From: Naegleria gruberi
Lineage: Eukaryota
DNA length: 64,000 nt
NCBI GenBank assembly: GCA_000004985.1
Contig: GG738854.1
Strand: one strand, 5' to 3'
The notes beneath the pieces were generated by a model. It was given only the letters and a program-made list of their open reading frames with translations. It did not search any database and was not told where the DNA came from. The position numbers were made by a program, and so were the translations under genes. Below, piece after piece: positions 34,001 through 58,094 of the stretch. Numbering within the stretch: the first letter of the stretch is position 1; every line of letters starts with the position of its first letter.

Positions 34001-36958
34001 CAAAAATATAGAAACATAGAATTAATAATTGAGGCCCAAACTAAATTATATTTGAACTTTTCATTAGGAAAATATACAACACCAAGCCAAGGTCATTCAC
34101 CTCACTTTTTGAAATATCAAGGATATCCAATACTAATTAGAAAGTATCAAGGACTTCTTGAAGATTTGTCTGATGATTCACAAAGAATCAGGTTGTTAAA
34201 TTTATTTGTTAGATTGATTGCTAGCCAGTTAGAACCTGAACCAGAAATTTCTTATAGAAACAAACTTTTATTTTTGACTTCTGGTGGTTTAATTTTCATT
34301 TCCGAATACATTATCAAGAATTCTGTTTGTAGAAATGATGAACAACTCATGATTAATACTTTGAGAGTTTTAGATTCTATAGCAGATATTTTAATGCCAC
34401 TCATATCTGAAGATGAAGAGGAAAAGTTAATTCCTATTAACTTCTTTGATATATTTGTACCTCTCCTCGACACGAAGTACATTGAAAGTCGTACTGAAGT
34501 TTCACTAAGAACCATCCATTGCATAAGAAAATACGTAAGGCATTTACAAAATGATAATAATCCAATGGAAAAGGTAACACTAGATCCAAAGATTGAACAT
34601 TCTGTCAAACTCATACATAACAGATGGCCACTTATACTTCAATTAATTAATGTTGGTTTCATTTTCAAATATAACGGTAATAGTAATACAACAGAAAATG
34701 ATGACCATACCTTTATCAAAACAATATGTATTACAGCTTTAGAGATTATTCACAATTTGCTTTCTCTTAAGATAAGGTCATCATTTGAAACTTTATTGGA
34801 AAAGTTGTTATTGAAGAATATGATTGAAACTTTAATGCAAATTGGAAAGAGAGGAGAATTGCCAATATTTGACAAGATTAAAACATTTGATGATTTTTAT
34901 AACTTGACAAGATCAGAAACTAATCATATCCTATTGGTTTGGAATGAAAATTTACGCAGTGAATTGCTTGAATTTATTGATTTAAACATTCATAAGAACA
35001 ATAAGGAATTAACAGGTCATATTGAAAAATTCTCCTATACTTGTCTCAAATCTGAAGGCATGTTTAAATTGCTAGATACAAATTTAGATATTTATCCTAC
35101 TTGCTTGATTAGTACATGGAAGGAAAGTAACTTGTTGAGTCTTTCTGAATTCTTGCAGAGTATTGTTGATCCTGCAATTTTAAATTCCACCAATTTGATT
35201 CAAAGTTTAATTACAAGTTTGCACTCCTTACTTGTTGTTGAATACCAACAAAAGATGATTACCAAGGAAACTCTCAGACCACTCGCTCAACAAATTACAC
35301 TTCTCAAGTTGATTGTTTGTCAAGACAGTTCAAAAAATCTTTCCTCAGAAACATCTGAACAAACTTTGATTTTCCTTAACACATCCTATCAACAAGTTAT
35401 TCTTCATATTTATCATTTACTAATTGGATATTTAGCTAATTTGACAAAAGATGAGGAGTTTATGGTAGAATCTGTTAATGATATTCTTGAAATTATTATT
35501 CGTATTTCAAAATTCTTCTCAAAATATTCTAACAAGATTGGAGAGGACAAGACCAAAGAATTTTATCAATTTATGGTTGCAACTATGCACAAGTTTATAA
35601 TTTACTATTATAAGGGATGTAATAATGATAATTCCTTGAAGGAGGAAGCATTATTGTTAAATATTTTTGATCATTTAATTACCTTCTTTAAAACACTAAC
35701 TGTTGGTACTACTCCAAATATTCAAACATATTGTGTCGGAAATGGATTATTACTCTCAGTATTACATGCATCTATCAAGGGAGGTATCCATCAAGTTCAA
35801 GCAGTTAGATTGAAATCAAGTTTATTGTTATCCACTCTGGTTAAACTTTCCATTCCTTCAGTTAATGAAGTTTTGGATCAAATGCTCTTCCCTTCATTTG
35901 CTTCATTGCTTGGTCAAGGACAATTAGAAGAATTTATCAAGCAATTTGATGAAGATGTTGTTAATCCTGAAGTTTGGTGGGATGGAAGAGACAGAGATTT
36001 GGTCAGAGAATATCTATCCGAACATATTAATCTTGCATCTGATTATTTCTTTATGGGAACACATTTAGAAGATTTTGCTTCCAATACTCAAAGCAAATTC
36101 AACGCAAACACAGAAAAGGGTTACAAACTTGGTAGTATTTATTTAACCAAGTTGAATGAAATGCCAACTTATCAATTTACTTTAATAACCAATCATCAAT
36201 TTATTGAAATGGTTGTTGAAAAACTTTCATCCCTTTGTGCTAAATATGAGGAAAGTAATATTAATAATACTGAAGAAAGAAAAACAATTTGGAAAACTGC
36301 CTATGCATTCATTCAAAATCATTCACTTTACAAGGATGTTAATTCAACAGAATTATCTTTAGAAGTTGAACAATCACTTCTTCTCCTACTTGAATTATTC
36401 TGCAGAGAATTAGTATACATTACTCAATCAGAGGAAAAGCATGACATGTTCGTGATTAATTTACTTTGTTTCTTGACTACTTTTGTTAAAAAGTATCCAA
36501 GTTCTTTCATTCAATTTTTGAATAATTTCTCTGATTTTACAACAATACTACTTCGTGTTGCTAATAACTATAGAAGTATTTTGAGATCTGTTATTCAAGT
36601 TATTTTGGATACTGTTGGAATTTTAACAAAAGAAAAAACAGGAATGTCCCAAGCACTCTATGAAAGTATTTTGGAACAAGTTGGTTCAGAGTTGAATATT
36701 GCCTATTTATTCTTATTTATTATGAATAAGGTTCAAGCTTCTCAATGTGTGGAAGTACTTATTTCAATTTCAAAGATTGATGATAATTTAGTTCCATATT
36801 TGAAAGAGAGTTGGTTCATTCCTGAAACATTCTTCACCTCATCAGAACATCTTTTAGAAAGTTTGGCAAATGTAAATGATGAATTTTGGAATGATGAAAA
36901 ACGAACCACTCTAACACAGAAATCTGAAGAAATTATTAAAAAGTTTGAAGCAAATTAA
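31017..36958 (+). CDS. Very large (~1950 aa) RME-8/DNAJC13-like IWN-repeat protein. It has an N-terminal MGxxxS myristoylation motif and no detectable J domain. Exons 31017..31690 and 31732..36958.
   Basis: It begins MGQSQGSLPP…. A 41-bp GTGAGT…tatag intron (phase 2) joins a 1738-aa ORF. There are four IWN-type repeats: LVWNQQMRDELVKVI, FLIWNGTHRSILKNSL, LLVWNENLRSELLEFI, PEVWWDGRDRDLVREYL. No HPD tripeptide or J-domain helix pattern occurs anywhere in the protein. Confidence 0.7.
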
Positions 36959-38769: not shown

Positions 38770-38842
38770 CGCCCCACGTGGGGCTCGAACCCACGACCGT
38801 TGGATTAAAAGTCCAACGCTCTACCGACTGAGCTAGCAGGGC
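38770..38842 (-). tRNA. tRNA-Lys (anticodon TTT)
   Basis: The reverse complement folds as a cloverleaf. The acceptor stem is GCCCTGC/GTGGGGC (two G-T pairs). The D arm is GCTC-AGTCGGTA-GAGC. The anticodon stem-loop is TTGGA-CTTTTAA-TCCAA. The T arm is GTGGG-TTCGAGC-CCCAC. T-rich tracts lie downstream on the coding strand. Confidence 0.85.
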
Positions 38843-41242: not shown

Positions 41243-43987
41243 TTATTCATAATCAATTGTGAGTTGTCCCTTTTCAACCAATTCAATTTCTTTTTCGGTC
41301 AGTTCAGAAATTCTTTCACCTCTATTTCTTTCGAATCGATAAGGAACAATTCCAAGAGTACCATCAAATCTATTCTTCTTAACTTGTAAATATTTGTAAT
41401 GCTTATTTCTTTGAATCATGATAATATTGTCGGCTTCTTGTGTTGCCTTTGCAGAACCAAACACACTGGAAATTTGTAATTGTTCCTTTTCGTCAATCTT
41501 CTTTGGATGGACAACAAGCGTCACGTGTACAGATCTTGTAGTTGCAAACTTTCTCAACTTTTCAATTGCCTTATCTTGTAATTCAAATCTATTAGTATAT
41601 GATGCATCAGAGGTTGACATCATAAATTGTAAATTATCAATCACAATATGAGCAACATCATATACATAGACTGCATAGTCCATAGCATCCAATAATTCGT
41701 CAATATCTGTTGAACCATAAAAGTTCAAAAAGTACATTGGTAATTCTGAGAATTGTTCACTAATAATTTCAAAATCCCTCTTCAATTCTTCTGGAGAATA
41801 TTGTCTAGCTGGTTGATAGGTTGATTTTGGCTTGGATTTAGATTCCTTAGCTGGCTTCTTTGGAGCTGGTGGAGCCTCTTCACCTGCATACGACATTAAA
41901 CTCATTGGATCAGCATCATAACTGTCAAACATGCTTGCATCTGATTCATCTTCTTCCTTTGTTTGCTCTTCTTGTTGCTCTTCAATTTCTTTGATTTGAA
42001 GACTTTCTTGTTTTCTTTGCTCCTTTTCAAATGAATGGTTGGTAGCTAAATCTTTACCAGCCAATTGACACATCATCTTTTTGATAAGTCTGTGATTTCT
42101 AATTTCAAATGAACCCCACAGTGTTGGTACATTACCATATTTACAATAGTCCAATGAAAGTTGTGAAAGAACTGTTGTCTTACCAATACCAGTGGCACCT
42201 GTAATGATTGTTAATTCTCCTCTTCTGTGCCCCTTTAAGATCTTGTTCAGACCTGGGAAAAAGTGAGATTGAACTCCATTCACAACTTCTGATTTGTCAA
42301 AAAGTTCTCTATATACTTGTTGTTTAAATGTGTTGAATGTTAAAATTCTTTCATGTTGAATTGGTGCAGCCTCTTCTATCAATCTGTGGAAGTCAAGACC
42401 TGCAAGCAATGCTTCATTTGCATCCTTAATTTTCTTTTCATTGGTTTGTTCTATTGGGTCACCATACTCATCAACTACTTCCTTATAATTCGAGTGGACA
42501 ATATAACATCTGCCAACACCAAGTTTTTTGGAGAAGAGTTCAGCTCCTTGTTGACCTGGAACATCGTCATCCATCCACAAGTAAATCTTATCAAAATCTT
42601 CTAGCCATTGGACGACATCAACTGGAAGTGATCGACATCCATTTGGTAATGAAACAGCTGGAATACCAGTCTTTTGATAGACAGCCATAGCATCAAACTC
42701 TCCTTCTGTAATGATAATTGTCTTCAAATCCTTTGGATTCTTCTTTCCCAAATCTCCATCATTTGCTAATGTCTTTCCTTTCACATTACTTTGTGGGTTA
42801 GTAGTAGTAGTGGTAGTAGATGGCTTTTCATTCTTAAATTTAGAAGCAATCAAGTGCCATCCAAATAAACCCCAATTATTTGTTTGAGGAGGATCCAATT
42901 TCATACATGTCTTATCTTGGATAGCTCTTATTTTATGTCTGGATAAAAGAATGCCACTTTCATGAGATTTGGTTGGTTTGAACATTGGGAATGTGAAACA
43001 AAGCTCATTAACTCTTACAAGGTTTTCTGTCTCTTGTTCTGGATTTTCGATTACCTTTGAAAATGGGAATACTCCACATCCAACACCATACATTGCTGCT
43101 ACATCCTTCTTGATTCCTCTTACCTTTTCAAGATATTGAACTGCTTCTGGGAAATCTACTCCATCAAAGTTGCTTCTGTATGTTTCAAACTCCTTCTTTG
43201 TTGGTTTATCCCTCTTCTTTGGTAAATTAGTTGCTGATGTTTCATTGTTTTGCCCTCCTGCTTTTGGTTGATTGTTGGATACTGAATCTGAGTGAAGTGT
43301 TGAAATTGGTGAATCCTTATGGAAATTCATTTTAAAATCAAACCAAGAACCCTTAGCTCCACATCTGTGACACATATAAGCTCCACTAGCTCTGTGAATA
43401 TATAATTTCCATAAATTAGTGACCTTTCCTTTAGTATCATGGCAGAAAGGACATTCTTTTACAATAATTTCATTCATTACATTTCTAAAGCCCAATCCTT
43501 TTCTTGTTAAAAACTCTTGAATATCACTTTCGTTGATCTTGTAAAAATTAGAAACAAATGTATTAAAAGCATTGGAGTGATTTTGAAGTGGGTTATTTCT
43601 ATCTTCTGGAGTTTCCTCAAGTGTGTCGTCATATTCCTCTTCAAACTCTTCCTCTTGTTGTTGTTTTATATTTCTATTCGGTGCTATTGTTGATGATGCA
43701 TTGGTCATTACTTGTTGAATTTTAGCATTAGAAGTTGTGGTAGGCTTTGATTGTGTTGATGTGCTTGTTGCTGTGGTATTATTATTGGTGGCTGCTGGGG
43801 TAATCTTTTTAATTACTTTTGTGTAACTAAATTGTTGGCAACAATTGCAATTATGATGATAACATCTGTGTTGTTGAGAGTTGTTGATATTGTGCAAGTG
43901 TTGATGATGGCCTTGTTCGGAAGGTAAATATTTGCTTCTCGATGAGACAATAGAGTTTTTGAAAGCCTTTGAAACCAACTTTCTCAT
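41243..43987 (-). CDS. Twinkle-type mitochondrial DNA primase-helicase (T7 gp4-like) with intact zinc-finger, TOPRIM and DnaB-like helicase motifs
   Basis: It is a 914-aa single ORF with ATG at 43985..43987. The Zn ribbon is CPFCHDTKG…CHRCGAKG. The TOPRIM motif is IIITEGEFDAMAV…WMDDDVPG. Walker A is TGATGIGKTT and Walker B is HIVIDNLQFM. The N-terminus is low-complexity and presequence-like. Confidence 0.85.
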   Translation of the reverse strand: MRKLVSKAFKNSIVSSRSKYLPSEQGHHQHLHNINNSQQHRCYHHNCNCCQQFSYTKVIKKITPAATNNNTTATSTSTQSKPTTTSNAKIQQVMTNASSTIAPNRNIKQQQEEEFEEEYDDTLEETPEDRNNPLQNHSNAFNTFVSNFYKINESDIQEFLTRKGLGFRNVMNEIIVKECPFCHDTKGKVTNLWKLYIHRASGAYMCHRCGAKGSWFDFKMNFHKDSPISTLHSDSVSNNQPKAGGQNNETSATNLPKKRDKPTKKEFETYRSNFDGVDFPEAVQYLEKVRGIKKDVAAMYGVGCGVFPFSKVIENPEQETENLVRVNELCFTFPMFKPTKSHESGILLSRHKIRAIQDKTCMKLDPPQTNNWGLFGWHLIASKFKNEKPSTTTTTTNPQSNVKGKTLANDGDLGKKNPKDLKTIIITEGEFDAMAVYQKTGIPAVSLPNGCRSLPVDVVQWLEDFDKIYLWMDDDVPGQQGAELFSKKLGVGRCYIVHSNYKEVVDEYGDPIEQTNEKKIKDANEALLAGLDFHRLIEEAAPIQHERILTFNTFKQQVYRELFDKSEVVNGVQSHFFPGLNKILKGHRRGELTIITGATGIGKTTVLSQLSLDYCKYGNVPTLWGSFEIRNHRLIKKMMCQLAGKDLATNHSFEKEQRKQESLQIKEIEEQQEEQTKEEDESDASMFDSYDADPMSLMSYAGEEAPPAPKKPAKESKSKPKSTYQPARQYSPEELKRDFEIISEQFSELPMYFLNFYGSTDIDELLDAMDYAVYVYDVAHIVIDNLQFMMSTSDASYTNRFELQDKAIEKLRKFATTRSVHVTLVVHPKKIDEKEQLQISSVFGSAKATQEADNIIMIQRNKHYKYLQVKKNRFDGTLGIVPYRFERNRGERISELTEKEIELVEKGQLTIDYE

Positions 43988-45771: not shown

Positions 45772-47697
45772 ATGGAAAACCTCCAACAACAACAAATTGA
45801 AAAGAAGTGTTCTTCTTGTTTACTTCTTCAACAGTTGTTTAGTGTTGGTTGTTTCTTGTTGCTGTTCTTGATTGGAGAAGTTGTTTGTTCTCTTGATGCT
45901 GGTTGTAAACATAATGTTGGATTTGAGTGGAAGAGATGTGAAATTTCAAATCATCATGCTTACTTGAATTCACACGAGATGGAGTGTTCATTTGTTAGAG
46001 TTCCAATTGATTGGAGAAGATTTGATGTAATGAATGAAACAAATCATGTGAAGAGTGAATCACCAACTACTCTGGATTGGATATGTGTTCATGTAAAGAG
46101 GTTGAAATCTCTCAGTTCAGAAAAGAAGGGCCAATTGTGGATTCATAATACTCCTCTATTTGAATTTCACAAAACTGTATCTGTGGAGGTTGAGGAATTA
46201 TTCTTGAAGGAATCAATTAGATATAAAGATTATGATATTTACTTTCCAGATATTAGAGGATTAGGTAAATCAACTCCAAAATTTGTTTGTGAATTTGAGG
46301 AACAATCAGGACATGTCTTCATTTCAGAGAAGGATATTGATGCATGTCTAGCCACAAATACTAAGAATGAAAAGATAATTAGTGAAAAATATGGAGAATA
46401 TTTTCACACATATCAAATTGTTAGAGACATTTTTCACATGATTGAAATGACTAGAGTAGAGAATGGTGGAGAAAGTTATCGAATAATTCATTATGGATAT
46501 GGTTTTAATACATTTCTCATTGGTAGAATGATACAGTTAGAGAAGGAATTGAAATTATCCTTCTTGAACAAGTCATCCAAGAGCTATTTGGATATGGTTA
46601 TAGTTGATTCAGTTTTTTCAATGAATGTTTCAACAATTGACATGTTCAATTTTGATAAGAGATTTAATGAAATTGCTCTTTCATTCCTAGAGGAATGTGA
46701 TAAGGATAAATATTGCACTGAAAAATTGGATTTACTACACAAAATTAAGGGAAAAGTATCATTGAGAACATTGTTGAATGGAATCTATTTGATTCATTTG
46801 AAAAGATGTTATATTGCGAATTCTTATTTTTTCAGGGATATTTTAACTTACTTTTACTATGAGGATGATTTGAGACATTTATTGATACCGCTAATATTCA
46901 GGATTTCAAGATGTAATGAATTGGATAAGAATGTTATTCAGGACTTTTTTTATCACATTAACCATACTATGATCACTACTGAGAATTCACATACGAAATT
47001 GCAGACCTATTCAGCTTTTGAGAGAGTAATTGGATCTTTCGAGTTAATGGATCATTCATTCAAATTTTATAAGGAAGAGGAAACCGGAGCTCTTGATTTG
47101 GCTGAATATCCGTTCTATTCTGGACTCTCACTTAATATGATGAAGACTTATAGTTTGTTTTTTCATTCACCCCATTCAACAAATCATACTAATAATACTC
47201 ATAGTCATTTCACAGATTTTTCAAAACCAATGTTAATGTTACATGGCTCATTGGATCCCATTAGTTCAATCAATAATCTTATCGATTGGAAGGATTTCTA
47301 CTTGAATGAATCAAAGGCTAATTTTGAAAACCATCACGCTGTTACTTTTCCATATGTTAATCATATTACTACTTTGAAATCTTATTGTAGCTTGGAGGTC
47401 ATGCATACATTTATTCAATCACTTGGAAGGGAGTATTTCAATGAATGTCTATTGGAATCTACTGCATCAGATCAAATTAGAAGTCAACTGTTCAACGAGT
47501 CAAACTGGAGTGAGCAATTGAAAAATACTACTCTCATATACTTTGGTACGAAGGATGCTCTCGATGGTGGACTTTCAATATCTGCTTCAAATTATTATTT
47601 CCTGGTGGTTGGTATGAGTGTTTCAGGAGTTTTGCTCATTGAATTATTTGTTCTACTCATCATTTTGTTAGTCATGTCTATCAAGGAACTCAAGTAG
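45772..47697 (+). CDS. TAP-like (S33 family) alpha/beta-hydrolase-fold membrane/secreted protein lacking the nucleophile serine
   Basis: It is a 641-aa ORF with an N-terminal hydrophobic segment and a C-terminal TM helix. Its S33/TAP-like features include VRVPIDWRRFD…GQLWIHNT and a C-terminal MLMLHGSLDPIS (compare vLhGtlDPvtP). At the GxSYGT position it reads YGYGFNT, so no serine is present. There are many N-glycosylation sequons. Confidence 0.65.
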   Translation: MENLQQQQIEKKCSSCLLLQQLFSVGCFLLLFLIGEVVCSLDAGCKHNVGFEWKRCEISNHHAYLNSHEMECSFVRVPIDWRRFDVMNETNHVKSESPTTLDWICVHVKRLKSLSSEKKGQLWIHNTPLFEFHKTVSVEVEELFLKESIRYKDYDIYFPDIRGLGKSTPKFVCEFEEQSGHVFISEKDIDACLATNTKNEKIISEKYGEYFHTYQIVRDIFHMIEMTRVENGGESYRIIHYGYGFNTFLIGRMIQLEKELKLSFLNKSSKSYLDMVIVDSVFSMNVSTIDMFNFDKRFNEIALSFLEECDKDKYCTEKLDLLHKIKGKVSLRTLLNGIYLIHLKRCYIANSYFFRDILTYFYYEDDLRHLLIPLIFRISRCNELDKNVIQDFFYHINHTMITTENSHTKLQTYSAFERVIGSFELMDHSFKFYKEEETGALDLAEYPFYSGLSLNMMKTYSLFFHSPHSTNHTNNTHSHFTDFSKPMLMLHGSLDPISSINNLIDWKDFYLNESKANFENHHAVTFPYVNHITTLKSYCSLEVMHTFIQSLGREYFNECLLESTASDQIRSQLFNESNWSEQLKNTTLIYFGTKDALDGGLSISASNYYFLVVGMSVSGVLLIELFVLLIILLVMSIKELK

Positions 47698-48960: not shown

Positions 48961-50139
48961 TTACATGAGTAGGCACTTTTTTTGACTCTTTAGAAAGTGT
49001 TTGTCCTGTCTGGATGTTTCAGTTTTAATTAAAAATTGTGGAAAATCAGCTAAACCTTCATTTTCCTTTGCACTAACTTCCAAATATGTATAACATCCAA
49101 GTTTCTTTGCTAATTTTTCACCCAATTCAAATGAAATTGGTTTTGTTTTGGTATTGAGAAGTGTTGATCTTCTTAGGGAGGGATTAGTTTCAGCATCGGA
49201 TTTAGTTTTCATCAAGACAATATTGGGATTCTTAATGTTCTTTCTATTTTAGGTAATTTAAAATAATTCATTAGAATAGAAAAACAAACCTCACTTCAGG
49301 AATCCACTGGGTTGCAATACTTTTAAAAGATTTCACAGAAATACAACTGAAAAACACAATAACCAAATCAGTTTCTGGATAAACCTTAATAAAAATTTAC
49401 CAAATTAAGAATTTCCAACTTTCCCAACTTACCAAATGTCTAATTTTTTCGTAATCACCAACATTTGACGTATCCCTTTAAAATTTCACAATATTTCCAT
49501 TTAATTTCCATTCAATTTCCAATTTAATTCAACAACTTACCAATATCCAATTGAGTACTGATTTCTAGGAATTGAATATGAATAATTATCAAATACTTGT
49601 GGAATATATTCACTCGGAAATATTCCACTTGAAATTGTAATGAAAAAACTTGTTTTACCCACTTGATCATCTCCAACTCCAATAATTTTGAATATTTTGG
49701 ATGGATTTGAGAGAATTGGTTGATATTTCTCAATTTCTCCCTTTTCAATGTAGAAATTCTCTTTCGAATGGTCTGATTTCAATTCATCCACATACGAAAT
49801 CAAGTCATTTTCTTCTTGTTGAGCTTGTTTCATAAAAGTTTCAAGAAATTTCAATAAATTTTCTCGATAATTTTCACAAACACTTTCCAAATATTCGAAT
49901 TTCTCTTCAAATACATCATACGAATCCGATTCTTTGCTCGAATCGATATAATTCTGTATAGTTTGATAATAAATTGGTTTCCAATAAAAATCTTCATGGC
50001 AGAGTTGACAAATTCTTGCTGATTTGGATACCAAATTTAGTCTAAGCAAATCATTACTTGTTAGAAATGACAGAATTATTCTCAACATGTCATCATTTAG
50101 AAAATTGTTAATATTTAATTGACGTTTTGATCTTGACAT
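48961..50139 (-). CDS. Chimeric F-box + atypical Rho-family GTPase with a CAAX box (CLLM). Exons 49541..50139, 49433..49475, 49290..49384, 48961..49243.
   Basis: Exon 1 is MSRSKRQLNINNFLNDDMLRIILSFLTSNDLLRLNLVSKSARICQLCHEDFYWK (F-box), continuing …KIIGVGDDQVGKTSFFITISSGIFPSEYIPQVFDNYSYSIPRNQYSIGY. Exon 2, after a 65-bp GTAAGT intron, is WDTSNVGDYEKIRHL. Exon 3, after a 48-bp GTAAGT intron, is VYPETDLVIVFFSCISVKSFKSIATQWIPEV. Exon 4, after a 46-bp intron, is RKNIKNPNIVLMKTKSDAE…ISFELGEKLAKKLGCYTYLEVSAKENEGL…KKCLLM. Colinear with Rac/Rho: P-loop, T35-region FDNYS, DTAGQ-box, TKxD and SAK. The exon 3 donor is GTTTGT (alternative GTGAGG with a different acceptor). Confidence 0.7.
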
Positions 50140-50216: not shown

Positions 50217-51458
50217 TTATAAAATTTGTTCCAAATTAAATTTCGTATATTTGTATCTCAAATAATATTCAACAAATTCTTCCTCATTAGAACACAATTT
50301 TTGAATTTTCGAAATGTATTTCTCACGAGATTTGGCATTCATTTTGTCATCCGTTCCACTTTCTCTAAGATTCGCAAAGAGTTTCGAATATTTTTGAATG
50401 GTCAACCCAAGATTAATCAAATCAAGTCTCTGATTATGACCTTTCTTTAGTAGTTTCAAATCTTTCTTCAAAATAAATGATGTAAAAACATCCCTTTCTT
50501 TTGTATCTTTGGGTGTGAAGCTTTTGAATTGATCTGAAAGTTCTTTTGAAATTTCCTTCACCTTCTCCAAGTAATGTTTCTTTAAAAAGTGATAAATTAA
50601 ATTGTTTCGAATAAAGTTTGGAAAATAATTTGCAAAAAATCTATGAGTGGCTGAATTGATGTAATGAAAAGAATTATTTAAACGAAACTTCAATATTCGA
50701 ATATTAATTAGTAAGCAAAAGTAGGGAATAAATTGTTTTGGAGATAGTTCATAACTTTTCACAGTTGGAATGAGATACGATAAAATATGCTTCTCCAAAT
50801 ATTCAACTCCAGATATTCTGCCACCAGAATTTCTATCAATGAATTTGTAAAGAAAACATTGATTAGTTTCTTCCAATCTATTCGAAAGCTCATTTCTCAA
50901 TCCACCAGCAGAACCATAAAAAAATTCTGCATTCTTCAAATCATCACTTTCCCTAGCAACATATAGAAAATAATCACTAGCAACAGATTTACCATATCCA
51001 CTTCTTATTTTAGGAATATTCTTTCCTCTTACTATAATTGGTTCTTCAATTCCATCAATTAAAAGTTTCATTTTGTAAAATGGTACATCATTAAATGATA
51101 ATATTATCTCTGTAAAGACAATTCTTGAGAGAATGATTTTCACTAGTTGAGAGGAAAATGCATTCGGAAAAGTTTGTTTAAATTCCAATTCTAATTCTTT
51201 CGATGGTTGAGAATTCTGGGAAAGGAACATGTTGTATTTTGAATAGTGATCACTAATTGTGTGTTTCCAATATAAAGTGTCATTGTGTAAATTACTCTTC
51301 TGGAGGGAGTTGTTTGTTAATTGGTGAAAGTAGGTTTCCCATAGTGGATTGGAATTGGCAATTCGATTCCACTCTTTGCAAACTAGAGATAGATAGGAAG
51401 TGTGCGAATAATCGAGAAATGAAAAGGTATAATACAGAATATCCTCATGAAGATGCAT
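50217..51458 (-). CDS. F-box protein (413 aa), second F-box gene in tandem
   Basis: It has ATG at 51456..51458. The F-box is EDILYYTFSFLDYSHTSYLSLVCKEWNRIANSNPLWETYF. The rest has no recognised domain. It is a single exon. Confidence 0.6.
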   Translation of the reverse strand: MHLHEDILYYTFSFLDYSHTSYLSLVCKEWNRIANSNPLWETYFHQLTNNSLQKSNLHNDTLYWKHTISDHYSKYNMFLSQNSQPSKELELEFKQTFPNAFSSQLVKIILSRIVFTEIILSFNDVPFYKMKLLIDGIEEPIIVRGKNIPKIRSGYGKSVASDYFLYVARESDDLKNAEFFYGSAGGLRNELSNRLEETNQCFLYKFIDRNSGGRISGVEYLEKHILSYLIPTVKSYELSPKQFIPYFCLLINIRILKFRLNNSFHYINSATHRFFANYFPNFIRNNLIYHFLKKHYLEKVKEISKELSDQFKSFTPKDTKERDVFTSFILKKDLKLLKKGHNQRLDLINLGLTIQKYSKLFANLRESGTDDKMNAKSREKYISKIQKLCSNEEEFVEYYLRYKYTKFNLEQIL

Positions 51459-51568: not shown

Positions 51569-51649
51569 GCGGTCTTGACCGAGTGGTTAAGGTGATTGAC
51601 TAGAAATCAATTGGGGCGACCCGCACAGGTTCGAATCCTGTAGACCGCG
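51569..51649 (+). tRNA. tRNA-Ser (anticodon AGA)
   Basis: The acceptor stem is GCGGTCT/AGACCGC. The D arm is ACC-GAGTGGTTAA-GGT. The anticodon stem-loop is ATTGA-CTAGAAA-TCAAT. There is a long variable arm TGGGGCGACCCGCA. The T arm is ACAGG-TTCGAAT-CCTGT, and the discriminator is G. Confidence 0.85.
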
Positions 51650-51983: not shown

Positions 51984-54407
51984 ATGTCATCACAAGTGAC
52001 TCTGATTTTAGATGTTGTTGACAAAAGGGATGCAACTTTTATAGCTGAATTTTATTCCAATAATTGTAGTTATCAACAATTTGTGAAAATTATTCGTGAA
52101 GAGAGTAAGAATCGTTTGAAATTAAACGAATCCTTTGTAGAATGTTACAAATCAGTCGAGTTGATCTTCCGAGGTCATTTTCTTCCTTTTGATAGTATCA
52201 AGCAAATTACACAAGTGTTTAAATATCCATTCTTGAAGAGTTATCAAAAGATGAATCAAAGAAAGGTCAAATCCTTTTTTAGTTGGAAAGACAAACCAGA
52301 ATCTATTTGGGATAGAATGGAGAAACTAGATGAAATTGTTCGAATTCTTATTAATAATGAAACTGATTACAAATCTATGTATTATATTAATAATTTATTT
52401 AGAGATTATGAAAATCAACCGAGCTTGTTGTTTGTTATTGGATCTCATCCGAAAATGGATTGGGGGCATTTGGTTTCTGCTCTTGCAAAATCTCCCGAGT
52501 TGACCAAACACTTGTTTAACTTTAAATATTATTCATTAAATGCACTACCAGAGAAATTATTCCAAATAAGACATGTAGTTTCAGAATTAGTCAAGAAGGA
52601 CATTTTAGCATTACAATTAGCTACTAATTTTAGAAATGATAGAGAGATTGTTCTTGATGCTTGTAAACACAATCCATTGGCTTTACAATTTGCTAGCTCA
52701 GACTTGAGAAATGATAAGGAATTTGTAATGAAAGTGTTGGGAAGAAGATTTAACACACTGCACTATGTGGGAGAGTCTTTATTATCCGATTCACAAGTAT
52801 TGAGAAGAGGAATGATGTCTGAAAAAGAGTGGAGACATGAAAGATTTGATTCTATGAATACTTTTGAATTGATGGAAGAGATTTTGAAGAATAGACCACT
52901 AATGGTTCTCAAATTTTATCATTTATTGGAGGAGAGGGGTCTTGAATTTAGAATTGACTCAATTTGCAACAATTTCAAAATAATTATTGAAAAGTCTCCG
53001 TTCCAAATTCAAGAAAGCATTCTTTTGAGGAATCAAGTCAATCTTTTTAATTCAATTGAAAATCCAAATGTAGCTCTGAAATTTATTTCCATTGGATATT
53101 GTGAAAGATATCGTGCTTGTAAAGATCATTTGCTCCAGTTAACAAAATCGAAATATCCTCATTTGGAAAATCTTTCAATGGAAACAGAGGAAGAAAAGTA
53201 CATTTTAAAAAACCATTCAAATGGTCTCATTACATGTAAAGAAGAATTGAGAAATGATAAGAACTTTGTACTGAGATATTTTCAATTACACACTAATAGA
53301 AAGAGGATGATTTCCATTATTGGTGTTGGGGAGGCTTTGTTAAATGACCAAGAAATATTGAAAGAATATCTTGTCACTAACGGTATTCCTGTAGATGATG
53401 AGAATAATCTATCATCAGAACTCTTGATGAAACAAATTATTTCAGTCTACCCATTGTCCATTGTAAGATTTTACAAATTTTTACAAAATGAAATAGAGTT
53501 CAATATCACCTCTTTTAATTTCCAAGAACTTTGCAGAACAGCACCACTTATTACCGATCTACAATTTGCTTCACTATTAATATGTAAGAATTATTCTTTT
53601 TATTATAAGCTATCAGATGAACTGAGGAAAGAGACATCTTTTGTTAAGATACTGCTTTTTAAAAATGGGGTGAATATTCATTTTAAAAAACTTCCTTCTA
53701 CTTGTTACTCAGATAGAGAAATAATGACCCATATATTGACAACACCTTCATATCACTATAAGAATGAAAGTGAGTCAATTTGTTGTGCAGTTTGTAAAGC
53801 ATTCCCATTTGATATTGACCTTATGAAACAAGCAGTCAAATGGCATGGACATACACCACTTCCTTACATGCATCACGACCTGTTACTAAATAATAGGGAT
53901 TTCTGTTATTGGTTAATGGACAGTTGTGGCCATCCACAATCATACTTTAAGTATCTTCCAGAAAAAATCAGAACAGATAGGGATTTTATATTTGAATTGC
54001 TTGATGATTTGTATTGGAAAATTGGATATGTGAAAAATATTACAATGGACTTTGTGATGAAATGCATAAGGAAAAACAAAATTTGCTACAAGTATTTTGG
54101 ACAGATATTTAGAGAAAATAGACAAGTAATTGATCTGGCAATGGAAATGGGTGTTCCAATCAAGGAAATTACAGTATGTCAAGCATTTAGTGAGCATTTG
54201 TGGGATAGTTCACCAGATAATTTTGTTGATAATTTGTGCCATCCAGGTTATCAAGTGTTTCTCAATAAGGATCTACTGAGGAGAGCTATTGAAAGAAATT
54301 CTAAAGGTTTTGACAATATTGAAAAATGGAAGAATTATCCTGGATGTGAGTGTTTATCCGAGCAAGATTGGACAGATTTGAAAAAGTTAGCAAGTGCCAT
54401 GGAATAG
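51984..54407 (+). CDS. DUF4116-repeat protein (807 aa)
   Basis: It is an ATG-initiated single ORF. It has repeated ~24-aa units of the DUF4116 type (LRNDREIVLDACKHNPLALQFASSDLRNDKEFVMKVL; ELRNDKNFVLRYF; LRKETSFVKILLF; RTDRDFIFELL). Confidence 0.65.
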   Translation: MSSQVTLILDVVDKRDATFIAEFYSNNCSYQQFVKIIREESKNRLKLNESFVECYKSVELIFRGHFLPFDSIKQITQVFKYPFLKSYQKMNQRKVKSFFSWKDKPESIWDRMEKLDEIVRILINNETDYKSMYYINNLFRDYENQPSLLFVIGSHPKMDWGHLVSALAKSPELTKHLFNFKYYSLNALPEKLFQIRHVVSELVKKDILALQLATNFRNDREIVLDACKHNPLALQFASSDLRNDKEFVMKVLGRRFNTLHYVGESLLSDSQVLRRGMMSEKEWRHERFDSMNTFELMEEILKNRPLMVLKFYHLLEERGLEFRIDSICNNFKIIIEKSPFQIQESILLRNQVNLFNSIENPNVALKFISIGYCERYRACKDHLLQLTKSKYPHLENLSMETEEEKYILKNHSNGLITCKEELRNDKNFVLRYFQLHTNRKRMISIIGVGEALLNDQEILKEYLVTNGIPVDDENNLSSELLMKQIISVYPLSIVRFYKFLQNEIEFNITSFNFQELCRTAPLITDLQFASLLICKNYSFYYKLSDELRKETSFVKILLFKNGVNIHFKKLPSTCYSDREIMTHILTTPSYHYKNESESICCAVCKAFPFDIDLMKQAVKWHGHTPLPYMHHDLLLNNRDFCYWLMDSCGHPQSYFKYLPEKIRTDRDFIFELLDDLYWKIGYVKNITMDFVMKCIRKNKICYKYFGQIFRENRQVIDLAMEMGVPIKEITVCQAFSEHLWDSSPDNFVDNLCHPGYQVFLNKDLLRRAIERNSKGFDNIEKWKNYPGCECLSEQDWTDLKKLASAME

Positions 54408-54463: not shown

Positions 54464-57400
54464 TTAGAGCTCAATACTGTTGTATCCTTTCATCTCCTCA
54501 AAGTTGAAAATCTTTTCTTTTGGAAGTGATTGTTTCTTTCTAATTAACAAGACAATAACCACGATAATGAGAACTATTACACATAATGTTAAAAAGGCAA
54601 CACATAATCCAAGACCGATTACAGTGGTTTGTTCAGAATGTGATGGTTGGGGTTTGATTGGATCTGAAGATTTTGCAACAATTACCAGATTGTACTCTTC
54701 GTGCAAAATAGTTTCAGCACAATGCAATGTGTAGAGTGAATCAGTATTGGTTATTGCACTACTTCCATAAAATATTCTTTCAGATGTGACATAAACGCAC
54801 TGAAGAGAATTTAAATCAGATATTTTGTTTCCGTATTCGTCACGTAATTTGTTTACGTCGAAAGTGAACATTCTGTCTGTGGAAATATCTGATTTAACAA
54901 TTTGCATAATTGAGAAACTCTTCACCTTAACAAAACCATCCAACCACTTGTCATCATCATCTTGGTATTTCAACATGAACCTAACACCATTATTCAATTG
55001 AGGGAATGATTTGGAGGAGAAGGAGAATTCAAAATAGGTTGATGGAGACAGTTCATACTTTAAGGATCTTTCATAATGTATAGAATAGACTTTACCAATT
55101 TCTCCAATTGGGTTGTTGTAAGCAAATACGGCGAATTTGAGTTTTTGATTGATGGATATATTGATGGATAGTTTCCACGGATCTTTTGACTGTGTGTCAT
55201 CACATTCTAACCAATTGAATTCTTGTTTCTCGTCATCAACAGAAAAAAATCGGTATGAAAATGGATCCAAGTTTCTGTTGATAGAGTTCTTTTCATAGAC
55301 TAAATCTAGCTCAGTATCAATGCTTATACTACTGTATACATTGACTTTACTGGTATCCAAGACGTAAACACCAACCAAAGATAGTGGTTGAAGCTTAGTG
55401 TTTGGAAGTGAATAATCGGAATATTTCCTATTATCAACCATTAGCATATAATTTCCTGTTGATCTGCAGTTTGGATTGAAAGAAATAGTCAATGCATCCA
55501 TAGGTAATACTTGGCTATAGAATGTATCAATATCAGTTGGTATAACAGCATTAATAGAGTTGAGATCCTTAATGTATACATTGCCAACAAATGGCTTGCC
55601 CAATAGAATGAAAGCAAATGTCTCATCTCTGATATCCTCCTGAAGGTCGATCAGTACAAGTTTTTCCTGTGCATCTGAGATTATAATTGGTTGAGATCCA
55701 CTCTCTTCAAACTTTTCAAAGTTTGATTCTTTGAATAAATACCCTCCTTTAATATCTGTAAACCTTATCTTCATAAATTTAAATATGGAAGTTTCAAAAT
55801 CAATGAGGAATTTTCTTCCCTCATCGAATCCATACGTCTCCAATCCATTTCCGTTTTGTTGTAAAAAGCTGTACAATACTGTATAATCATCCGTTCCCTT
55901 CATGTTTGTTGGATTAAAGTTGTTAATTGTAAAGTAAGGTCTGGATTCATAAAGAATTGGCGTGTAATATCTTTGTTTAAAGTAAACTGTAAGATTAATA
56001 TGGCTTCCCAAAGCATAAGAAACTTCTCTCGGATAATTAGCAAAAACAACTTCCCCAATCTCTGCCTTTGATTGTGCATAACTGAACAATCCAAAAGTTC
56101 TCTTTTTATAAACTTTTGAATTGAGTATTGGATCCAAATTGAGGCTGAAACTTGTTTGGGAGAGTCTTGGAATATCATCAGAAATCATTTCAAATAAATT
56201 TCCTTCTGAATTTAGTATGAACAATCTCAGTGAGTATGGATCGACTCCCATCTGTTGGGATGATTCAATATGTACAATGATAGCATTTTGTGAATCATAA
56301 GTTTTCTTCACATTAGTATTGATTTGAACTTGTGTAAAGTCTATATCAAAAACATTTGTGAGTGTGAGACCTGATTGTGAACTTGGGCTATGATTAACGT
56401 CTTTAAATTCCCCAATACTATTATCTATAAATGTATAACTTCCAGTTAGTTGACTATCTGGTTTAAATGAAACTTGAATTTTAGGATTGGATGAAAATTC
56501 CCTGAGTGTTTGAGGGTCAATAGAGCAAGCTGATCTAAAAGAACAAACTTGAATGGAAGGGATTTTTCCAATAACAGCCATGACATATTTTGAATCCTTC
56601 ATTATCTGGTTGCAAGTCAGTATGTATGTGGAAATTGTTCCTAGTGAATTTGAAGACGTAGGATCAATTGTTAGTTGTTTAAAATCAGAATCAGCAGTTG
56701 CGTAAGCGCATTTCAACGAGAAATGATCTACTTTCTTATTACCATATATTATTTCCAATCTGTGATGAATAGATCTAATTTCATCCAACTGGAAAATTCC
56801 CTTATTATCTTCTTCAATTGTGTATGCACCAAGAAGAACATACGAATCTGGAACAGTAACATTACTATCATAACTCGAAACAGTAACTGTAGGTGTTATG
56901 GTTTGGGATGGATCTTGTACGGATGCATTTGGATACAAGATGTGCATTTCAAATTGTTGGAGGTTGTAGAATAAATCTCTTGGGTATTTGAGAGAGACAC
57001 TCTTTGAAAGTTTCTCCTCTGTTGAGGAATAGGCAAAGAATAGCATGAGCTTGGAAATGGAAGTAGCTCCCTTAAACTCATTCAAAGAAACATTAAATTC
57101 CCATGGTCCTTGTGTTGAATTAATGCTATCTGAAGTTGGAAACATTGGAGTAAAATCGAACAGAACTGGAGTCTTGCCAGGTTCAATGGTATATGCTCTT
57201 ACTGAATAAGGGTCAATGTTAATCTTGAATGTTGGAAAAAACTTGATCGTCAGTGTTTGTTTCTTATCAGATAGTGCTGCACTTTCATTCCTTTTCAACT
57301 CCCAAAATAAGGAATATTGACAAGTCAATTGATTTTGAGTAACAATAGCAGGGACATTAATCATCTTGGGATTGGTAAGGAAAGAAAACTTTTGATTTCC

Positions 57401-57637
57401 ACTCCAGTCAAAGTCATCATGATAATGAACCTCAAAATAACCTCTAAAATGTCCCAATTCAAAGAAGTACGTCGGAATTACCTGTGTATCTACATCATGA
57501 ATACTATCCAAGTTATAAAACATGACTTGTTTTTCAAAGCTTTCCCTCACCATCACCAACACCATTATCAATACCAACACTAAACACCACCTACGGCTAT
57601 CAAACAAGTGTGCATGCGTGCGTTCAATCTTTTGCAT
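54464..57637 (-). CDS. Large type I membrane glycoprotein (about 1058 aa): signal peptide, extensive N-glycosylated ectodomain, single C-terminal TM helix, short cytoplasmic tail
   Basis: It has ATG at 57635..57637 (MQKIERTHAHLFDSRRWCLVLVLIMVLVMV). The ectodomain is long with many NxS/T sequons. The TM helix is VIGLGLCVAFLTLCVIVLIIVVIVLLI, followed by RKKQSLPKEKIFNFEEMKGYNSIEL*. No specific family is recognised. Confidence 0.6.
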   Translation of the reverse strand: MQKIERTHAHLFDSRRWCLVLVLIMVLVMVRESFEKQVMFYNLDSIHDVDTQVIPTYFFELGHFRGYFEVHYHDDFDWSGNQKFSFLTNPKMINVPAIVTQNQLTCQYSLFWELKRNESAALSDKKQTLTIKFFPTFKINIDPYSVRAYTIEPGKTPVLFDFTPMFPTSDSINSTQGPWEFNVSLNEFKGATSISKLMLFFAYSSTEEKLSKSVSLKYPRDLFYNLQQFEMHILYPNASVQDPSQTITPTVTVSSYDSNVTVPDSYVLLGAYTIEEDNKGIFQLDEIRSIHHRLEIIYGNKKVDHFSLKCAYATADSDFKQLTIDPTSSNSLGTISTYILTCNQIMKDSKYVMAVIGKIPSIQVCSFRSACSIDPQTLREFSSNPKIQVSFKPDSQLTGSYTFIDNSIGEFKDVNHSPSSQSGLTLTNVFDIDFTQVQINTNVKKTYDSQNAIIVHIESSQQMGVDPYSLRLFILNSEGNLFEMISDDIPRLSQTSFSLNLDPILNSKVYKKRTFGLFSYAQSKAEIGEVVFANYPREVSYALGSHINLTVYFKQRYYTPILYESRPYFTINNFNPTNMKGTDDYTVLYSFLQQNGNGLETYGFDEGRKFLIDFETSIFKFMKIRFTDIKGGYLFKESNFEKFEESGSQPIIISDAQEKLVLIDLQEDIRDETFAFILLGKPFVGNVYIKDLNSINAVIPTDIDTFYSQVLPMDALTISFNPNCRSTGNYMLMVDNRKYSDYSLPNTKLQPLSLVGVYVLDTSKVNVYSSISIDTELDLVYEKNSINRNLDPFSYRFFSVDDEKQEFNWLECDDTQSKDPWKLSINISINQKLKFAVFAYNNPIGEIGKVYSIHYERSLKYELSPSTYFEFSFSSKSFPQLNNGVRFMLKYQDDDDKWLDGFVKVKSFSIMQIVKSDISTDRMFTFDVNKLRDEYGNKISDLNSLQCVYVTSERIFYGSSAITNTDSLYTLHCAETILHEEYNLVIVAKSSDPIKPQPSHSEQTTVIGLGLCVAFLTLCVIVLIIVVIVLLIRKKQSLPKEKIFNFEEMKGYNSIEL

Positions 57638-58094
57638 CTTTATCAAAACGAGAGAGAGGGAATGAAACAATGACGAGTCGTTGTATTTTTTTTAAGGCTA
57701 GAAAATTTTTATAATGTGGAGATTTTAGCGCGCTGTAAAAAAGATTTAAGGGTTCATTTTGAACCAGTAAATGGTTTACAATGAGTAGTTGATACCAAGT
57801 AGGGATGACTAGAAAGTATTTGTTAAAATATTCTCTCAATGGAAGTTTGCAGAGCTATTAATCTAAAATACTTCTTGTTTCTAATAACTGTTCAGCAAGT
57901 TTTGAAAAGGAAGGCCTTTGATAGAAATCTTCACACCACGAACATTGTACCATGGAAAACAATGAATCAAGAATTGTTAAATACTTTTCAAAAGGATCTT
58001 CCTGACTAATTCCTCAAGGAATGTAAAGCTCTCTGTTGTAAAAAAGGTAGTTTTGATTGTTAATGTAGAACTAGGCTGGTTGAGTAATTCTTTT

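What the first reader, a model, noticed from the sequence alone, without database searches (positions are those of the whole stretch)
48961..50139. F-box fused to an atypical Rho GTPase with a crippled switch II
A four-exon gene joins a canonical F-box (LNDDMLRIILSFLTSNDLLRLNLVSKSARICQLCHEDFYWK) to a complete Rho/Rac-like G domain ending in a CAAX box (CLLM). The G domain is atypical. The DTAGQ motif reads DTSNV (the catalytic Gln61 equivalent and the G3 glycine are lost). The P-loop is GVGDDQVGKT (Asp at the Gly12 position). These are the kinds of changes seen in GTPase-deficient, constitutively GTP-bound Rnd/RhoH/RhoBTB proteins. An SCF-adaptor motif fused to a prenylated, probably non-hydrolysing Rho is not a textbook architecture. 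It would suggest membrane-targeted recruitment of an SCF ligase, or SCF-controlled turnover of the GTPase itself.
Basis: partly seen in the sequence, partly recalled or inferred. Interest (0 to 1): 0.7.

Follow-up and report, generated by a model that had tools for sequence, protein, structure and literature searches.

The report
Naegleria F-box–Rac fusion protein, already catalogued
This is a real Naegleria gruberi gene that joins an F-box (a ubiquitin-ligase docking motif) to a lipid-anchored Rac-type GTPase whose switch residues are all mutated, but a 2021 comparative-genomics paper already lists this exact protein and its gene family, so it is a confirmed but known curiosity.

Summary
The four-exon model on the minus strand (48961..50139) translates to a 339-aa protein identical to N. 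gruberi XP_002680373.1 / D2V6S9, annotated "rho family small GTPase". Residues 150-339 are a Rac/Cdc42-like G domain with a Rho insert, a polybasic tail and CAAX (CLLM). The N-terminus scores just below Pfam's F-box cut-offs on its own. A profile of 16 family N-termini, however, hits only F-box proteins in the PDB (FBXO3, E 1e-9).

The fusion does not depend on splicing, because the F-box and the P-loop/switch I lie in one uninterrupted 200-codon ORF. dN/dS of 0.14 against a 96%-identical metagenomic allele argues against a pseudogene.

The architecture is not new. Herman et al. 2021 (BMC Biol 19:142, Table S8) list this accession as "Rac + F-box". They describe F-box fusions to Rab, Rho, Ran and Gα domains in Naegleria. 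I also found full-length Kelch–F-box–Rac homologues in Amoebozoa.

The protein is most likely a membrane-anchored SCF adaptor with a non-switching pseudoGTPase domain. That function is inferred, not tested.

The parts
48961..50139 (-). Complete CDS of the F-box–Rac gene (N. gruberi XP_002680373.1, 339 aa), from the ATG at 50139 to the TAA stop at 48961-48963
   Evidence: Spliced translation is an exact match to the NCBI/UniProt entry.
49541..50139 (-). Exon 1 (599 nt). Encodes aa 1-199 plus 2 nt of W200, and holds the F-box, the helical linker, the P-loop and switch I in one open frame.
   Evidence: ORF 49537..50139 of 200 aa.
49476..49540 (-). Intron 1 (65 nt, GTAAGT...AG)
   Evidence: The only indel relative to the metagenomic allele L001, 4 nt long, lies here.
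49433..49475 (-). Exon 2 (43 nt), encoding switch II, WDTSNVGDYEKIRHL
49385..49432 (-). Intron 2 (48 nt, GTAAGT...AG)
49290..49384 (-). Exon 3 (95 nt)
   Evidence: Colinear with Rac1.
49244..49289 (-). Intron 3 (46 nt, GTTTGT...AG)
48961..49243 (-). Exon 4 (283 nt including the stop). Encodes TKSD, the Rho insert, SAK, the polybasic tail and CAAX.
49969..50100 (-). Divergent F-box, aa 14-57 (LNDDMLRIILSFLTSNDLLRLNLVSKSARICQLCHEDFYWKPIY)
   Evidence: Pfam scores are below threshold for this protein alone. 11 of 14 family members hit F-box-like. The family profile hits only F-box-containing proteins in the PDB, with FBXO3 at E 1e-9.
49696..49968 (-). Helical linker conserved within the family, aa 58-148, with no Pfam match
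   Evidence: Family alignment. The AF2 model predicts long helices with pLDDT of about 85-95.
49045..49692 (-). Rac/Cdc42-like G domain, aa 150-312 (this span includes the three introns)
   Evidence: PF00071 at 89.3 bits; Rac1 at E 2.5e-35; Foldseek TM of about 0.8 to Rac1, Cdc42 and RhoA.
49651..49680 (-). P-loop GVGDDQVGKT. D158 (49666-49668) replaces Gly12 and Q159 replaces Ala13. Lys16 and Thr17 are kept.
49594..49608 (-). Switch I YIPQV. Q181 (49597-49599) replaces the invariant Thr35.
49460..49474 (-). Switch II DTSNV. S203, N204 and V205 replace Ala59, Gly60 and Gln61. Asp57 and Thr58 are kept.
49195..49206 (-). G4 motif TKSD (Rho-type TKxD), intact
49132..49197 (-). Rho insert region, aa 262-283
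   Evidence: Aligned to the Rac1 insert with a single 1-residue gap. Predicted helices at 262-265 and 267-277.
49066..49074 (-). G5 motif SAK, intact
48964..48990 (-). Polybasic stretch plus CAAX box, KSQKKCLLM. With Met as the last residue, farnesylation is predicted.
   Evidence: Sequence. 17 of the 28 profile-matched sequences (13 of them complete F-box–Rac proteins) end in C-a-a-Q, and the others end in variants such as CLLM, CCLI, CVIC or CQMM. The choice of prenyl group follows general CAAX rules and was not tested.

Best explanation
This is a functional, lineage-specific member of the F-box–Rac family of Naegleria and related Heterolobosea. It has a divergent N-terminal F-box, a family-specific helical linker of about 90 residues, and a C-terminal Rac-like domain with a polybasic tail and a farnesylation signal.

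Most likely mechanism:
1. The F-box docks on Skp1–Cul1 (SCF).
2. The lipid anchor places the complex on a membrane.
3. The Rac-like domain sits where WD40, LRR or Kelch domains sit in classical F-box proteins. There it acts as the partner- or substrate-binding module, in analogy to RhoBTB in Cul3 ligases.

In this paralogue all four residues that sense or attack the gamma-phosphate are replaced (Gly12, Thr35, Gly60, Gln61). The guanine and phosphate binding residues are kept (Lys16/Thr17, Phe28, Asp57, TKxD, SAK). I therefore expect it to bind nucleotide but neither hydrolyse it nor undergo the normal GDP/GTP conformational switch. That would make it a pseudoGTPase adaptor locked in one state.

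Shown: the gene structure, both domain homologies, the motif substitutions, family membership and purifying selection.
Inferred: Skp1 binding, prenylation and membrane location, nucleotide state, and any substrates.
For: - Exact identity to the annotated N. gruberi protein.
- Ras/Rho domain at 89 bits, and Rac1 at E 2.5e-35 with the Rho insert present.
- Foldseek TM of about 0.8 to Rac, Cdc42 and RhoA.
- Family N-terminal profile matches only F-box proteins, with FBXO3 at E 1e-9, FBXL5 at 2.8e-6, then FBXO4, FBXL2, FBXW7, beta-TrCP and Skp2. 11 of 14 members hit Pfam F-box-like.
- The F-box and P-loop lie in one uninterrupted ORF.
- 28 sequences in the fetched set match the family F-box profile; about 22 are distinct complete F-box–Rac proteins, the rest being this protein itself, fragments and near-identical cluster mates. 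Most end in CAAX. They come from N. fowleri, N. lovaniensis and Willaertia.
- Longer relatives carry a Kelch propeller upstream of the F-box. This is the classical substrate-receptor layout of F-box proteins.
- The AF2 model built with the family alignment has pLDDT 76 and pTM 0.72. The helical linker and G-domain core are confident, and only the two switch regions are disordered.
- Motif table.
- dN/dS of 0.14 against allele L001, with 13 synonymous and 8 non-synonymous changes, binomial p 2.6e-5. The only indel is in an intron.
- Herman et al. 2021 list the gene as Rac + F-box and do not flag it as a pseudogene. They propose 'GTPase-dependent ubiquitination'.
Against: - No experimental or transcript data were available here.
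- The F-box is below Pfam's gathering thresholds for this protein.
- Across the Naegleria family the Pro of the LP motif is replaced (LNDD). The Trp usually found after V-S/C-K-x is absent. Skp1 binding is therefore not assured.
- Loss of Thr35 and Gly60 could also weaken Mg2+/GTP binding, so the nucleotide state is uncertain.
- The presence of Skp1 and Cul1 in N. gruberi was assumed from general knowledge and not checked.
- No clear one-to-one orthologue was found. The best cross-species match, N. lovaniensis P0012 at 35% identity, is not a reciprocal best hit.
Confidence: 0.6

Rival explanations
1. Self-turnover device. The F-box does not recruit other substrates. Instead it couples the GTPase itself to SCF, so the protein is auto-ubiquitinated and short-lived, giving a rapidly turned-over Rac-like signal.
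For: The same idea was proposed for the trypanosome FYVE–F-box–GTPase TbFRP, which is rapidly proteolysed (PMC3593210). Auto-ubiquitination of F-box proteins is well documented generally (general knowledge). This short form has no separate substrate-binding domain such as Kelch.
Against: A GTPase that cannot switch gains little from rapid turnover. Longer relatives carry a Kelch propeller, which points to substrate recruitment. Nothing was tested directly.
Confidence: 0.2
2. Degenerate F-box. The N-terminal domain descends from an F-box but no longer binds Skp1. The protein is then simply an atypical, prenylated Rac-like pseudoGTPase whose helical N-terminal extension is used for other protein contacts or for autoinhibition.
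For: Pfam scores are below threshold. The LP proline and the conserved Trp are missing in this protein and in most Naegleria paralogues. The pTM of 0.72 suggests the N-terminal helices may pack against the G domain.
Against: The F-box signature is kept under selection in dozens of paralogues and across supergroups. Its hydrophobic core positions are retained. Many genuine F-boxes lack the Pro (general knowledge).
Confidence: 0.14
3. Decaying paralogue. The gene is a recently inactivated copy in a birth-and-death family, and the mutated switch motifs reflect relaxed constraint.
For: Herman et al. note pseudogenes and birth-and-death dynamics in the related expanded Naegleria GTPase families. 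Four catalytic or sensor residues are lost at once. No clear orthologue was found in other species.
Against: The reading frame and all GT..AG splice sites are intact in two diverged alleles. dN/dS is 0.14 with p 2.6e-5. The nucleotide-binding motifs and CAAX are preserved. The curated table does not flag the gene as a pseudogene.
Confidence: 0.05
4. Gene-model artefact. Two neighbouring genes, an F-box gene and a Rho gene, were merged by the predicted splicing.
For: An independent F-box gene does lie immediately upstream, at 50217..51458 on the minus strand. No cDNA was available here.
Against: The F-box, linker, P-loop and switch I are all in the single 200-codon ORF of exon 1. The architecture recurs in many species. 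The neighbour's F-box is only weakly similar, E 0.084.
Confidence: 0.01

Closest known systems
Naegleria F-box–Rac (and Kelch–F-box–Rac) genes catalogued by Herman et al. 2021, BMC Biol 19:142, Additional files 4 and 10
   Same: This very accession, XP_002680373.1, is listed there as 'Rac' with additional domain 'F-box'. It has the same layout as its paralogues: F-box, conserved helical linker, Rac domain, CAAX.
   Different: This copy is among the most degenerate in the switch residues. Among the 20 complete F-box–Rac sequences of the closer group in the table (profile E < 1e-18), the DxxG glycine is lost in only 3 (this protein, P0034, P0149). The Thr35 equivalent is lost in only 3 (this protein, P0012, P0041). 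The weakly matching P0018 has lost both. This copy also lacks the Kelch propeller of the long forms. The paper does not discuss its motifs and gives no experiments.
RhoBTB proteins (metazoa, Dictyostelium RacA, and Naegleria according to Herman et al.)
   Same: An atypical Rho domain is fused to a cullin-RING ligase adaptor module. The Rho domain is thought to be GTPase-deficient and to act as a regulatory or binding module rather than a switch (general knowledge; cited).
   Different: The adaptor is BTB (Cul3) rather than F-box (Skp1–Cul1). In RhoBTB the Rho domain is N-terminal and there is no CAAX. Here the Rho domain is C-terminal and carries a prenylation signal. The fusion event is independent.
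TbFRP, the FYVE–F-box–Ras-like GTPase of Euglenozoa (PMC3593210)
   Same: An F-box lies upstream of a small GTPase domain in a discobid protist. Membrane targeting combined with ubiquitin-linked turnover has been proposed.
   Different: Its GTPase is Rab-like, not Rho. Membrane targeting is through a FYVE/PI3P domain, not a CAAX. The authors found no orthologue in N. gruberi.
Kelch–F-box–Rac proteins of Amoebozoa (Stenamoeba stenopodia, Pelomyxa schiedti, Balamuthia mandrillaris)
   Same: These proteins are homologous to the Naegleria long forms along their whole length. N. fowleri P0011 against Stenamoeba P0029 gives 31% identity and E 2e-86 across Kelch, F-box and Rac. The F-box is above Pfam thresholds. 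Annotated genomes carry the same Pfam combination.
   Different: They have an N-terminal Kelch propeller, a shorter linker and largely canonical switch motifs. The window gene is a Kelch-less, motif-degenerate derivative.
Rnd1-3 / RhoH, the GTPase-deficient atypical Rho proteins
   Same: Substitutions at the Gly12 and Gln61 equivalents are predicted to abolish hydrolysis. The proteins are prenylated (general knowledge).
   Different: Rnd and RhoH keep the Thr35 and Gly60 equivalents and still adopt a GTP-bound 'on' conformation. This protein has lost both, so a constitutively 'on' state cannot be assumed. They also carry no F-box.

Membership tests
Rho family of small GTPases (Rac/Cdc42-like) | Ras-superfamily G-domain fold and sequence | tested here: met
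   PF00071 at 89.3 bits against a cut-off of 21.6. Foldseek TM normalised to target of about 0.8 to Rac1, Cdc42 and RhoA.
Rho family of small GTPases (Rac/Cdc42-like) | Rho-specific insert helix between beta5 and alpha4 | tested here: met
   Residues 262-283 align to the Rac1 insert with one 1-residue gap. Helices are predicted there.
Rho family of small GTPases (Rac/Cdc42-like) | Closest solved relatives are Rho-family members | tested here: met
   All of the top 60 PDB sequence hits are Rac1, Cdc42 or TC10, at E 2.5e-35 to about 7e-33. No formal phylogeny was run.
Rho family of small GTPases (Rac/Cdc42-like) | Canonical G1-G3 catalytic and switch residues (Gly12, Thr35, DxxG Gly60, Gln61) | tested here: not met
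   D158, Q181, N204 and V205 occupy these four positions. The protein is therefore an atypical or pseudo-GTPase member, not a canonical switch.
Rho family of small GTPases (Rac/Cdc42-like) | Guanine-nucleotide binding motifs (GKT, TKxD, SAx) and a C-terminal CAAX | tested here: met
   GKT at 161-163, TKSD at 259-262, SAK at 303-305 and CLLM at 336-339.
Rho family of small GTPases (Rac/Cdc42-like) | GTP binding and hydrolysis activity | not testable with these tools
   This needs a biochemical assay.
F-box proteins (SCF substrate receptors) | Sequence match to F-box profiles above curated thresholds | tested here: inconclusive
   This protein alone scores 17.7 against 20.5 (PF00646) and 17.1 against 24.3 (PF12937), so it is below threshold. 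At family level, 11 of 14 members match F-box-like with a best E of 1.1e-9. The family profile hits only F-box-containing proteins in the PDB, with FBXO3 at E 1e-9.
F-box proteins (SCF substrate receptors) | Three-helix F-box fold | tested here: inconclusive
   The AF2 model shows short helices at 16-23, 28-33 and 43-46, but pLDDT there is only about 60-74. No domain-only fold search was possible.
F-box proteins (SCF substrate receptors) | Conserved Skp1-contact residues (the LP motif and hydrophobic positions) | tested here: inconclusive
   The hydrophobic positions are conserved, but Pro is replaced by Asn (LNDD) and the usual Trp is absent.
F-box proteins (SCF substrate receptors) | Physical binding to Skp1 and assembly into SCF | not testable with these tools
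   This needs a pull-down or co-purification. The presence of Skp1 and Cul1 in N. gruberi was not checked here.
Naegleria/Heterolobosea F-box–Rac family (Herman et al. 2021) | Colinear F-box, conserved linker, Rac domain and CAAX, homologous over the full length to other members | tested here: met
   There are full-length matches to P0011, P0012, P0013, P0016, P0019, P0022, P0024, P0026, P0027, P0034, P0041 and P0149. This accession is listed in Table S8.
RhoBTB | Tandem BTB domains C-terminal to the Rho domain | tested here: not met
   No BTB hit was found in Pfam. The protein may work like RhoBTB but is not a member.

The most novel reading that the evidence does not exclude
F-box–Rac and Kelch–F-box–Rac proteins could form an old class of membrane-anchored SCF substrate receptors. 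The class would be shared by two eukaryotic supergroups, Heterolobosea and Amoebozoa, either by ancient descent or by lateral transfer. In it, the nucleotide state of a built-in Rho domain would gate ubiquitination. The window gene would be a naturally 'locked' variant, having lost all four gamma-phosphate-sensing residues, that ubiquitinates or sequesters Rac partners constitutively. The published table leaves the column 'orthologs outside Heterolobosea' empty for these genes. The amoebozoan full-length homologues seen here may therefore not have been reported.
Probability: 0.2. Interest if true: 0.55.

Novelty: already known. Interest (0 to 1): 0.27.

Why it matters
If the inferred function is right, these proteins link Rho-type membrane signalling directly to SCF ubiquitin ligases. 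That would be a Cul1 counterpart of the RhoBTB–Cul3 system, and it is expanded in amoeboid protists including relatives of the pathogen N. fowleri. This copy would be a natural switch-dead variant, useful for asking what the GTPase domain does when it cannot cycle.

The architecture and this gene are already catalogued. Nothing here changes current understanding. What remains open is experimental: Skp1 binding, nucleotide state and substrates.

Tried and rejected
- **Single-sequence AlphaFold2 model.** Unusable, with pLDDT 38.6. It was replaced by a model built on the family alignment.
- **First word-seeded homologue search.** It returned only two hits. One was the prokaryote-style ORF call of exon 1 from a metagenome. 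The exhaustive representative search was needed to find the family.
- **Exact look-up of the exon-1 ORF.** Nothing was found in the contig index.
- **Paper search for the metagenome project PRJEB11402.** Nothing was found, so the source of allele L001 is unknown.
- **Origin by duplication of the adjacent F-box gene (50217..51458).** Rejected. The two F-boxes are barely similar, E 0.084.
- **N. lovaniensis P0012 as a one-to-one orthologue.** Not supported. Its best matches are the N. fowleri Kelch–F-box–Rac proteins, not this protein.
- **afdb50 fold library.** Not available. The whole-model Foldseek search against the PDB was dominated by Rho GTPases and says nothing about the F-box fold.
- **Literature search for Naegleria Skp1.** Nothing usable.
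- **Rfam and tRNA scans.** Only three tRNA genes were found elsewhere in the window, and none bear on the gene.
Full report
**What is there.** On the minus strand the region has an ATG at 50139 and a 200-codon open frame that runs into a GTAAGT donor. This removes three GT..AG introns of 65, 48 and 46 nt and gives a 1020-nt CDS encoding 339 aa. An exact-sequence look-up shows the protein is XP_002680373.1 / EFC47629.1 / UniProt D2V6S9, "rho family small GTPase [Naegleria gruberi strain NEG-M]". Three other ORFs in the window are exact N. gruberi proteins on the same 665-kb scaffold. So the window is N. gruberi nuclear DNA, with 24% GC in this stretch.

**G domain.**
- Pfam Ras (PF00071) scores 89.3 bits over residues 151-312.
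- The best solved relatives are Rac1 (E 2.5e-35), Cdc42 and TC10.
- The Rac1 alignment has no gaps at any of the three exon junctions. It has one 2-residue gap in the beta2-beta3 loop and one 1-residue gap in the Rho insert. This is independent support for the splice sites.
- The alignment includes the Rho insert and ends in a polybasic stretch plus CAAX (KSQKKCLLM).
- An AlphaFold2 model built on a 14-sequence family alignment has mean pLDDT 76 and pTM 0.72. Only switch I (182-193) and switch II (202-213) fall below 50 inside the G domain.
- Foldseek places the model on Rac1, Cdc42 and RhoA with a TM of about 0.8.

**Switch and catalytic residues.** In the P-loop GVGDDQVGKT, D158 sits at Gly12 and Q159 at Ala13. 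In switch II DTSNV, S203, N204 and V205 sit at Ala59, Gly60 and Gln61.

The residues that hold the nucleotide are intact: Lys16/Thr17 (GKT), Phe28, Asp57/Thr58, TKSD and SAK. By textbook GTPase mechanism, Thr35 and Gly60 are the two gamma-phosphate sensors of the 'loaded spring'. Gly12 and Gln61 are needed for intrinsic and GAP-stimulated hydrolysis. Losing all four while keeping the binding motifs predicts a protein that binds nucleotide but neither hydrolyses it nor switches. This defect is stronger than in Rnd or RhoH, which keep the Thr35 and Gly60 equivalents. 'Constitutively GTP-bound' is therefore possible but not established.

**F-box.** On its own the N-terminus is just below Pfam's cut-offs: PF00646 scores 17.7 against 20.5 and PF12937 scores 17.1 against 24.3. 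It has LNDD where F-boxes usually have LPxE, and it lacks the usual Trp.

The exhaustive search of 1.84 billion representatives found many proteins matching the query over nearly its full length, covering the F-box, linker and Rac domain. Eleven of 14 aligned members hit Pfam F-box-like, with a best E of 1.1e-9. A profile of 16 N-termini (A3) searched against PDB sequences listed 23 hits at E <= 1, and every one carries an F-box. They include FBXO3 at 1e-9, FBXL5 at 2.8e-6, FBXO4, FBXL2, FBXW7, beta-TrCP, KDM2B, Skp2 and ECT2L. So the domain is a genuine but divergent F-box. Whether it still binds Skp1 cannot be decided here.

**Is the fusion real and functional?** The F-box (aa 14-57), the linker, the P-loop and switch I are all in exon 1, a single uninterrupted ORF. 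Splicing errors therefore cannot have created the fusion.

A 1211-bp metagenomic contig (L001, ENA ERZ929261) carries a 96%-identical allele with the same exon structure, and its only indel (4 nt) is in intron 1. Over 335 codons there are 13 synonymous and 8 non-synonymous differences. This gives dN/dS of 0.14, and a binomial test against neutrality gives p = 2.6e-5. The unusual P-loop and switch motifs are unchanged in that allele. This argues against a pseudogene.

**Family and distribution.** Twenty-eight of the 161 sequences fetched by then match the family F-box profile. They include this protein itself, three fragments and three near-identical cluster mates, which leaves about 22 distinct complete F-box–Rac proteins, nearly all ending in CAAX. 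The named ones come from N. fowleri, N. lovaniensis and Willaertia magna.

Gln61 is often replaced in the family (by P, G, H or S). Loss of Gly60 or Thr35 is rare, so the window gene is one of the most degenerate copies. No clean one-to-one orthologue emerged.

Longer relatives have a Kelch propeller upstream of the F-box. The N. fowleri Kelch–F-box–Rac protein P0011 aligns end to end with a Stenamoeba stenopodia protein, with 31% identity and E 2e-86. That Stenamoeba protein's F-box is above Pfam thresholds. Annotated genomes of Pelomyxa schiedti and Balamuthia mandrillaris hold proteins with the same Kelch + F-box + Ras combination. Other amoebozoans fuse Rac to BTB/U-box or to ubiquitin domains. 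Rho domains fused to ubiquitin-system modules are thus a recurring theme in amoeboid protists.

**Prior knowledge.** Herman et al. 2021 (BMC Biol 19:142, PMC8296547) describe novel GTPase architectures in Naegleria in Additional file 4. [quoted passage not shown] They take this as pointing to 'GTPase-dependent ubiquitination'. Their Table S8 lists XP_002680373.1 as 'Rac' with additional domain 'F-box'. The gene model is uncorrected, it is not flagged as a pseudogene, and no orthologue outside Heterolobosea is noted. A further precedent for an F-box plus a small GTPase is TbFRP of Euglenozoa (PMC3593210). RhoBTB is the well-known Cul3 analogue. The architecture and this specific gene are therefore already known at the bioinformatic level. 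I found no experimental work on it.

**Mechanism.** My best reading (confidence about 0.6) is a farnesylated, membrane-anchored SCF adaptor. The Rac-like domain is held by a rigid helical linker in the position normally taken by a substrate-binding domain, and it acts as a non-cycling binding module. The rivals are:
- the F-box serves the protein's own turnover (0.2);
- the F-box has lost Skp1 binding and the N-terminus has another role (0.14);
- the gene is a decaying paralogue (0.05);
- the gene model is an artefact (0.01).

Gene structure, domain homologies, motif changes and selection are shown. Skp1 binding, prenylation, nucleotide state and substrates are inferred.

**Verdict.** The novelty claim fails because the gene and its family are published. 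Interest is low to moderate. The amoebozoan full-length homologues and the complete loss of gamma-phosphate sensors in this copy are small additions that would need phylogeny and biochemistry to matter.

Noticed in passing
window 50217..51458 (-): The gene immediately upstream encodes a 413-aa protein with an N-terminal F-box above Pfam thresholds (PF12937 at 28.9 bits, PF00646 at 26.6) and no other recognised domain. Its stop codon lies 78 nt before the Rac gene's ATG. Its F-box is only weakly similar to that of the Rac gene (E 0.084), so the two are not a recent tandem duplicate.
   Followed up: partly
P0029 (Stenamoeba stenopodia), P0185/P0191/P0251 (Pelomyxa schiedti), P0203 (Balamuthia mandrillaris); Full-length Kelch–F-box–Rac proteins exist in Amoebozoa and align end to end with the N. 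fowleri ones (31% identity, E 2e-86). The 2021 Naegleria table notes no orthologues outside Heterolobosea for these genes. The architecture is either older than thought or was transferred between amoeboid lineages. Contamination of transcriptomes was not excluded, but Pelomyxa and Balamuthia are genome annotations.
   Followed up: partly
one search hits P0176, P0212, P0224 (BTB + U-box + Ras), P0174/P0175 (Kelch + BTB + Ras), P0218/P0221 (ubiquitin + Ras): Several other fusions of a Rac-like domain to ubiquitin-system modules appear in amoebozoan data sets such as Arcella and Physarum. They suggest a broader, largely unstudied link between Rho domains and ubiquitination in amoebae.
   Followed up: no
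window 41246..43987 (-): A 914-aa ORF carries Toprim and DnaB-like helicase C-terminal/AAA domains, the layout of a Twinkle-type primase-helicase.
   Followed up: no
window 51984..54404 (+) and 60274..62580 (+): Two large proteins carry DUF4116 repeats. They are exact matches to N. gruberi XP_002680240.1 and XP_002680241.1.
   Followed up: no
window 31742..36955 (+), 54467..57670 (-), 45772..47694 (+): Three long ORFs of 1738, 1068 and 641 aa have no Pfam match at E <= 0.001.
   Followed up: no
window 17868..17939 (+), 38770..38842 (-), 51569..51649 (+): Three tRNA genes, His-GTG, Lys-TTT and Ser-AGA, are interspersed among the protein-coding genes. The Ser gene lies about 110 nt upstream of the neighbouring F-box gene.
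   Followed up: no
L001 (ENA ERZ929261, run ERR1078381, project PRJEB11402): An environmental metagenome contig carries a 96%-identical allele of this gene. A close relative or strain of N. gruberi was therefore present in that sample. The sample's origin could not be traced in the literature library.
   Followed up: partly
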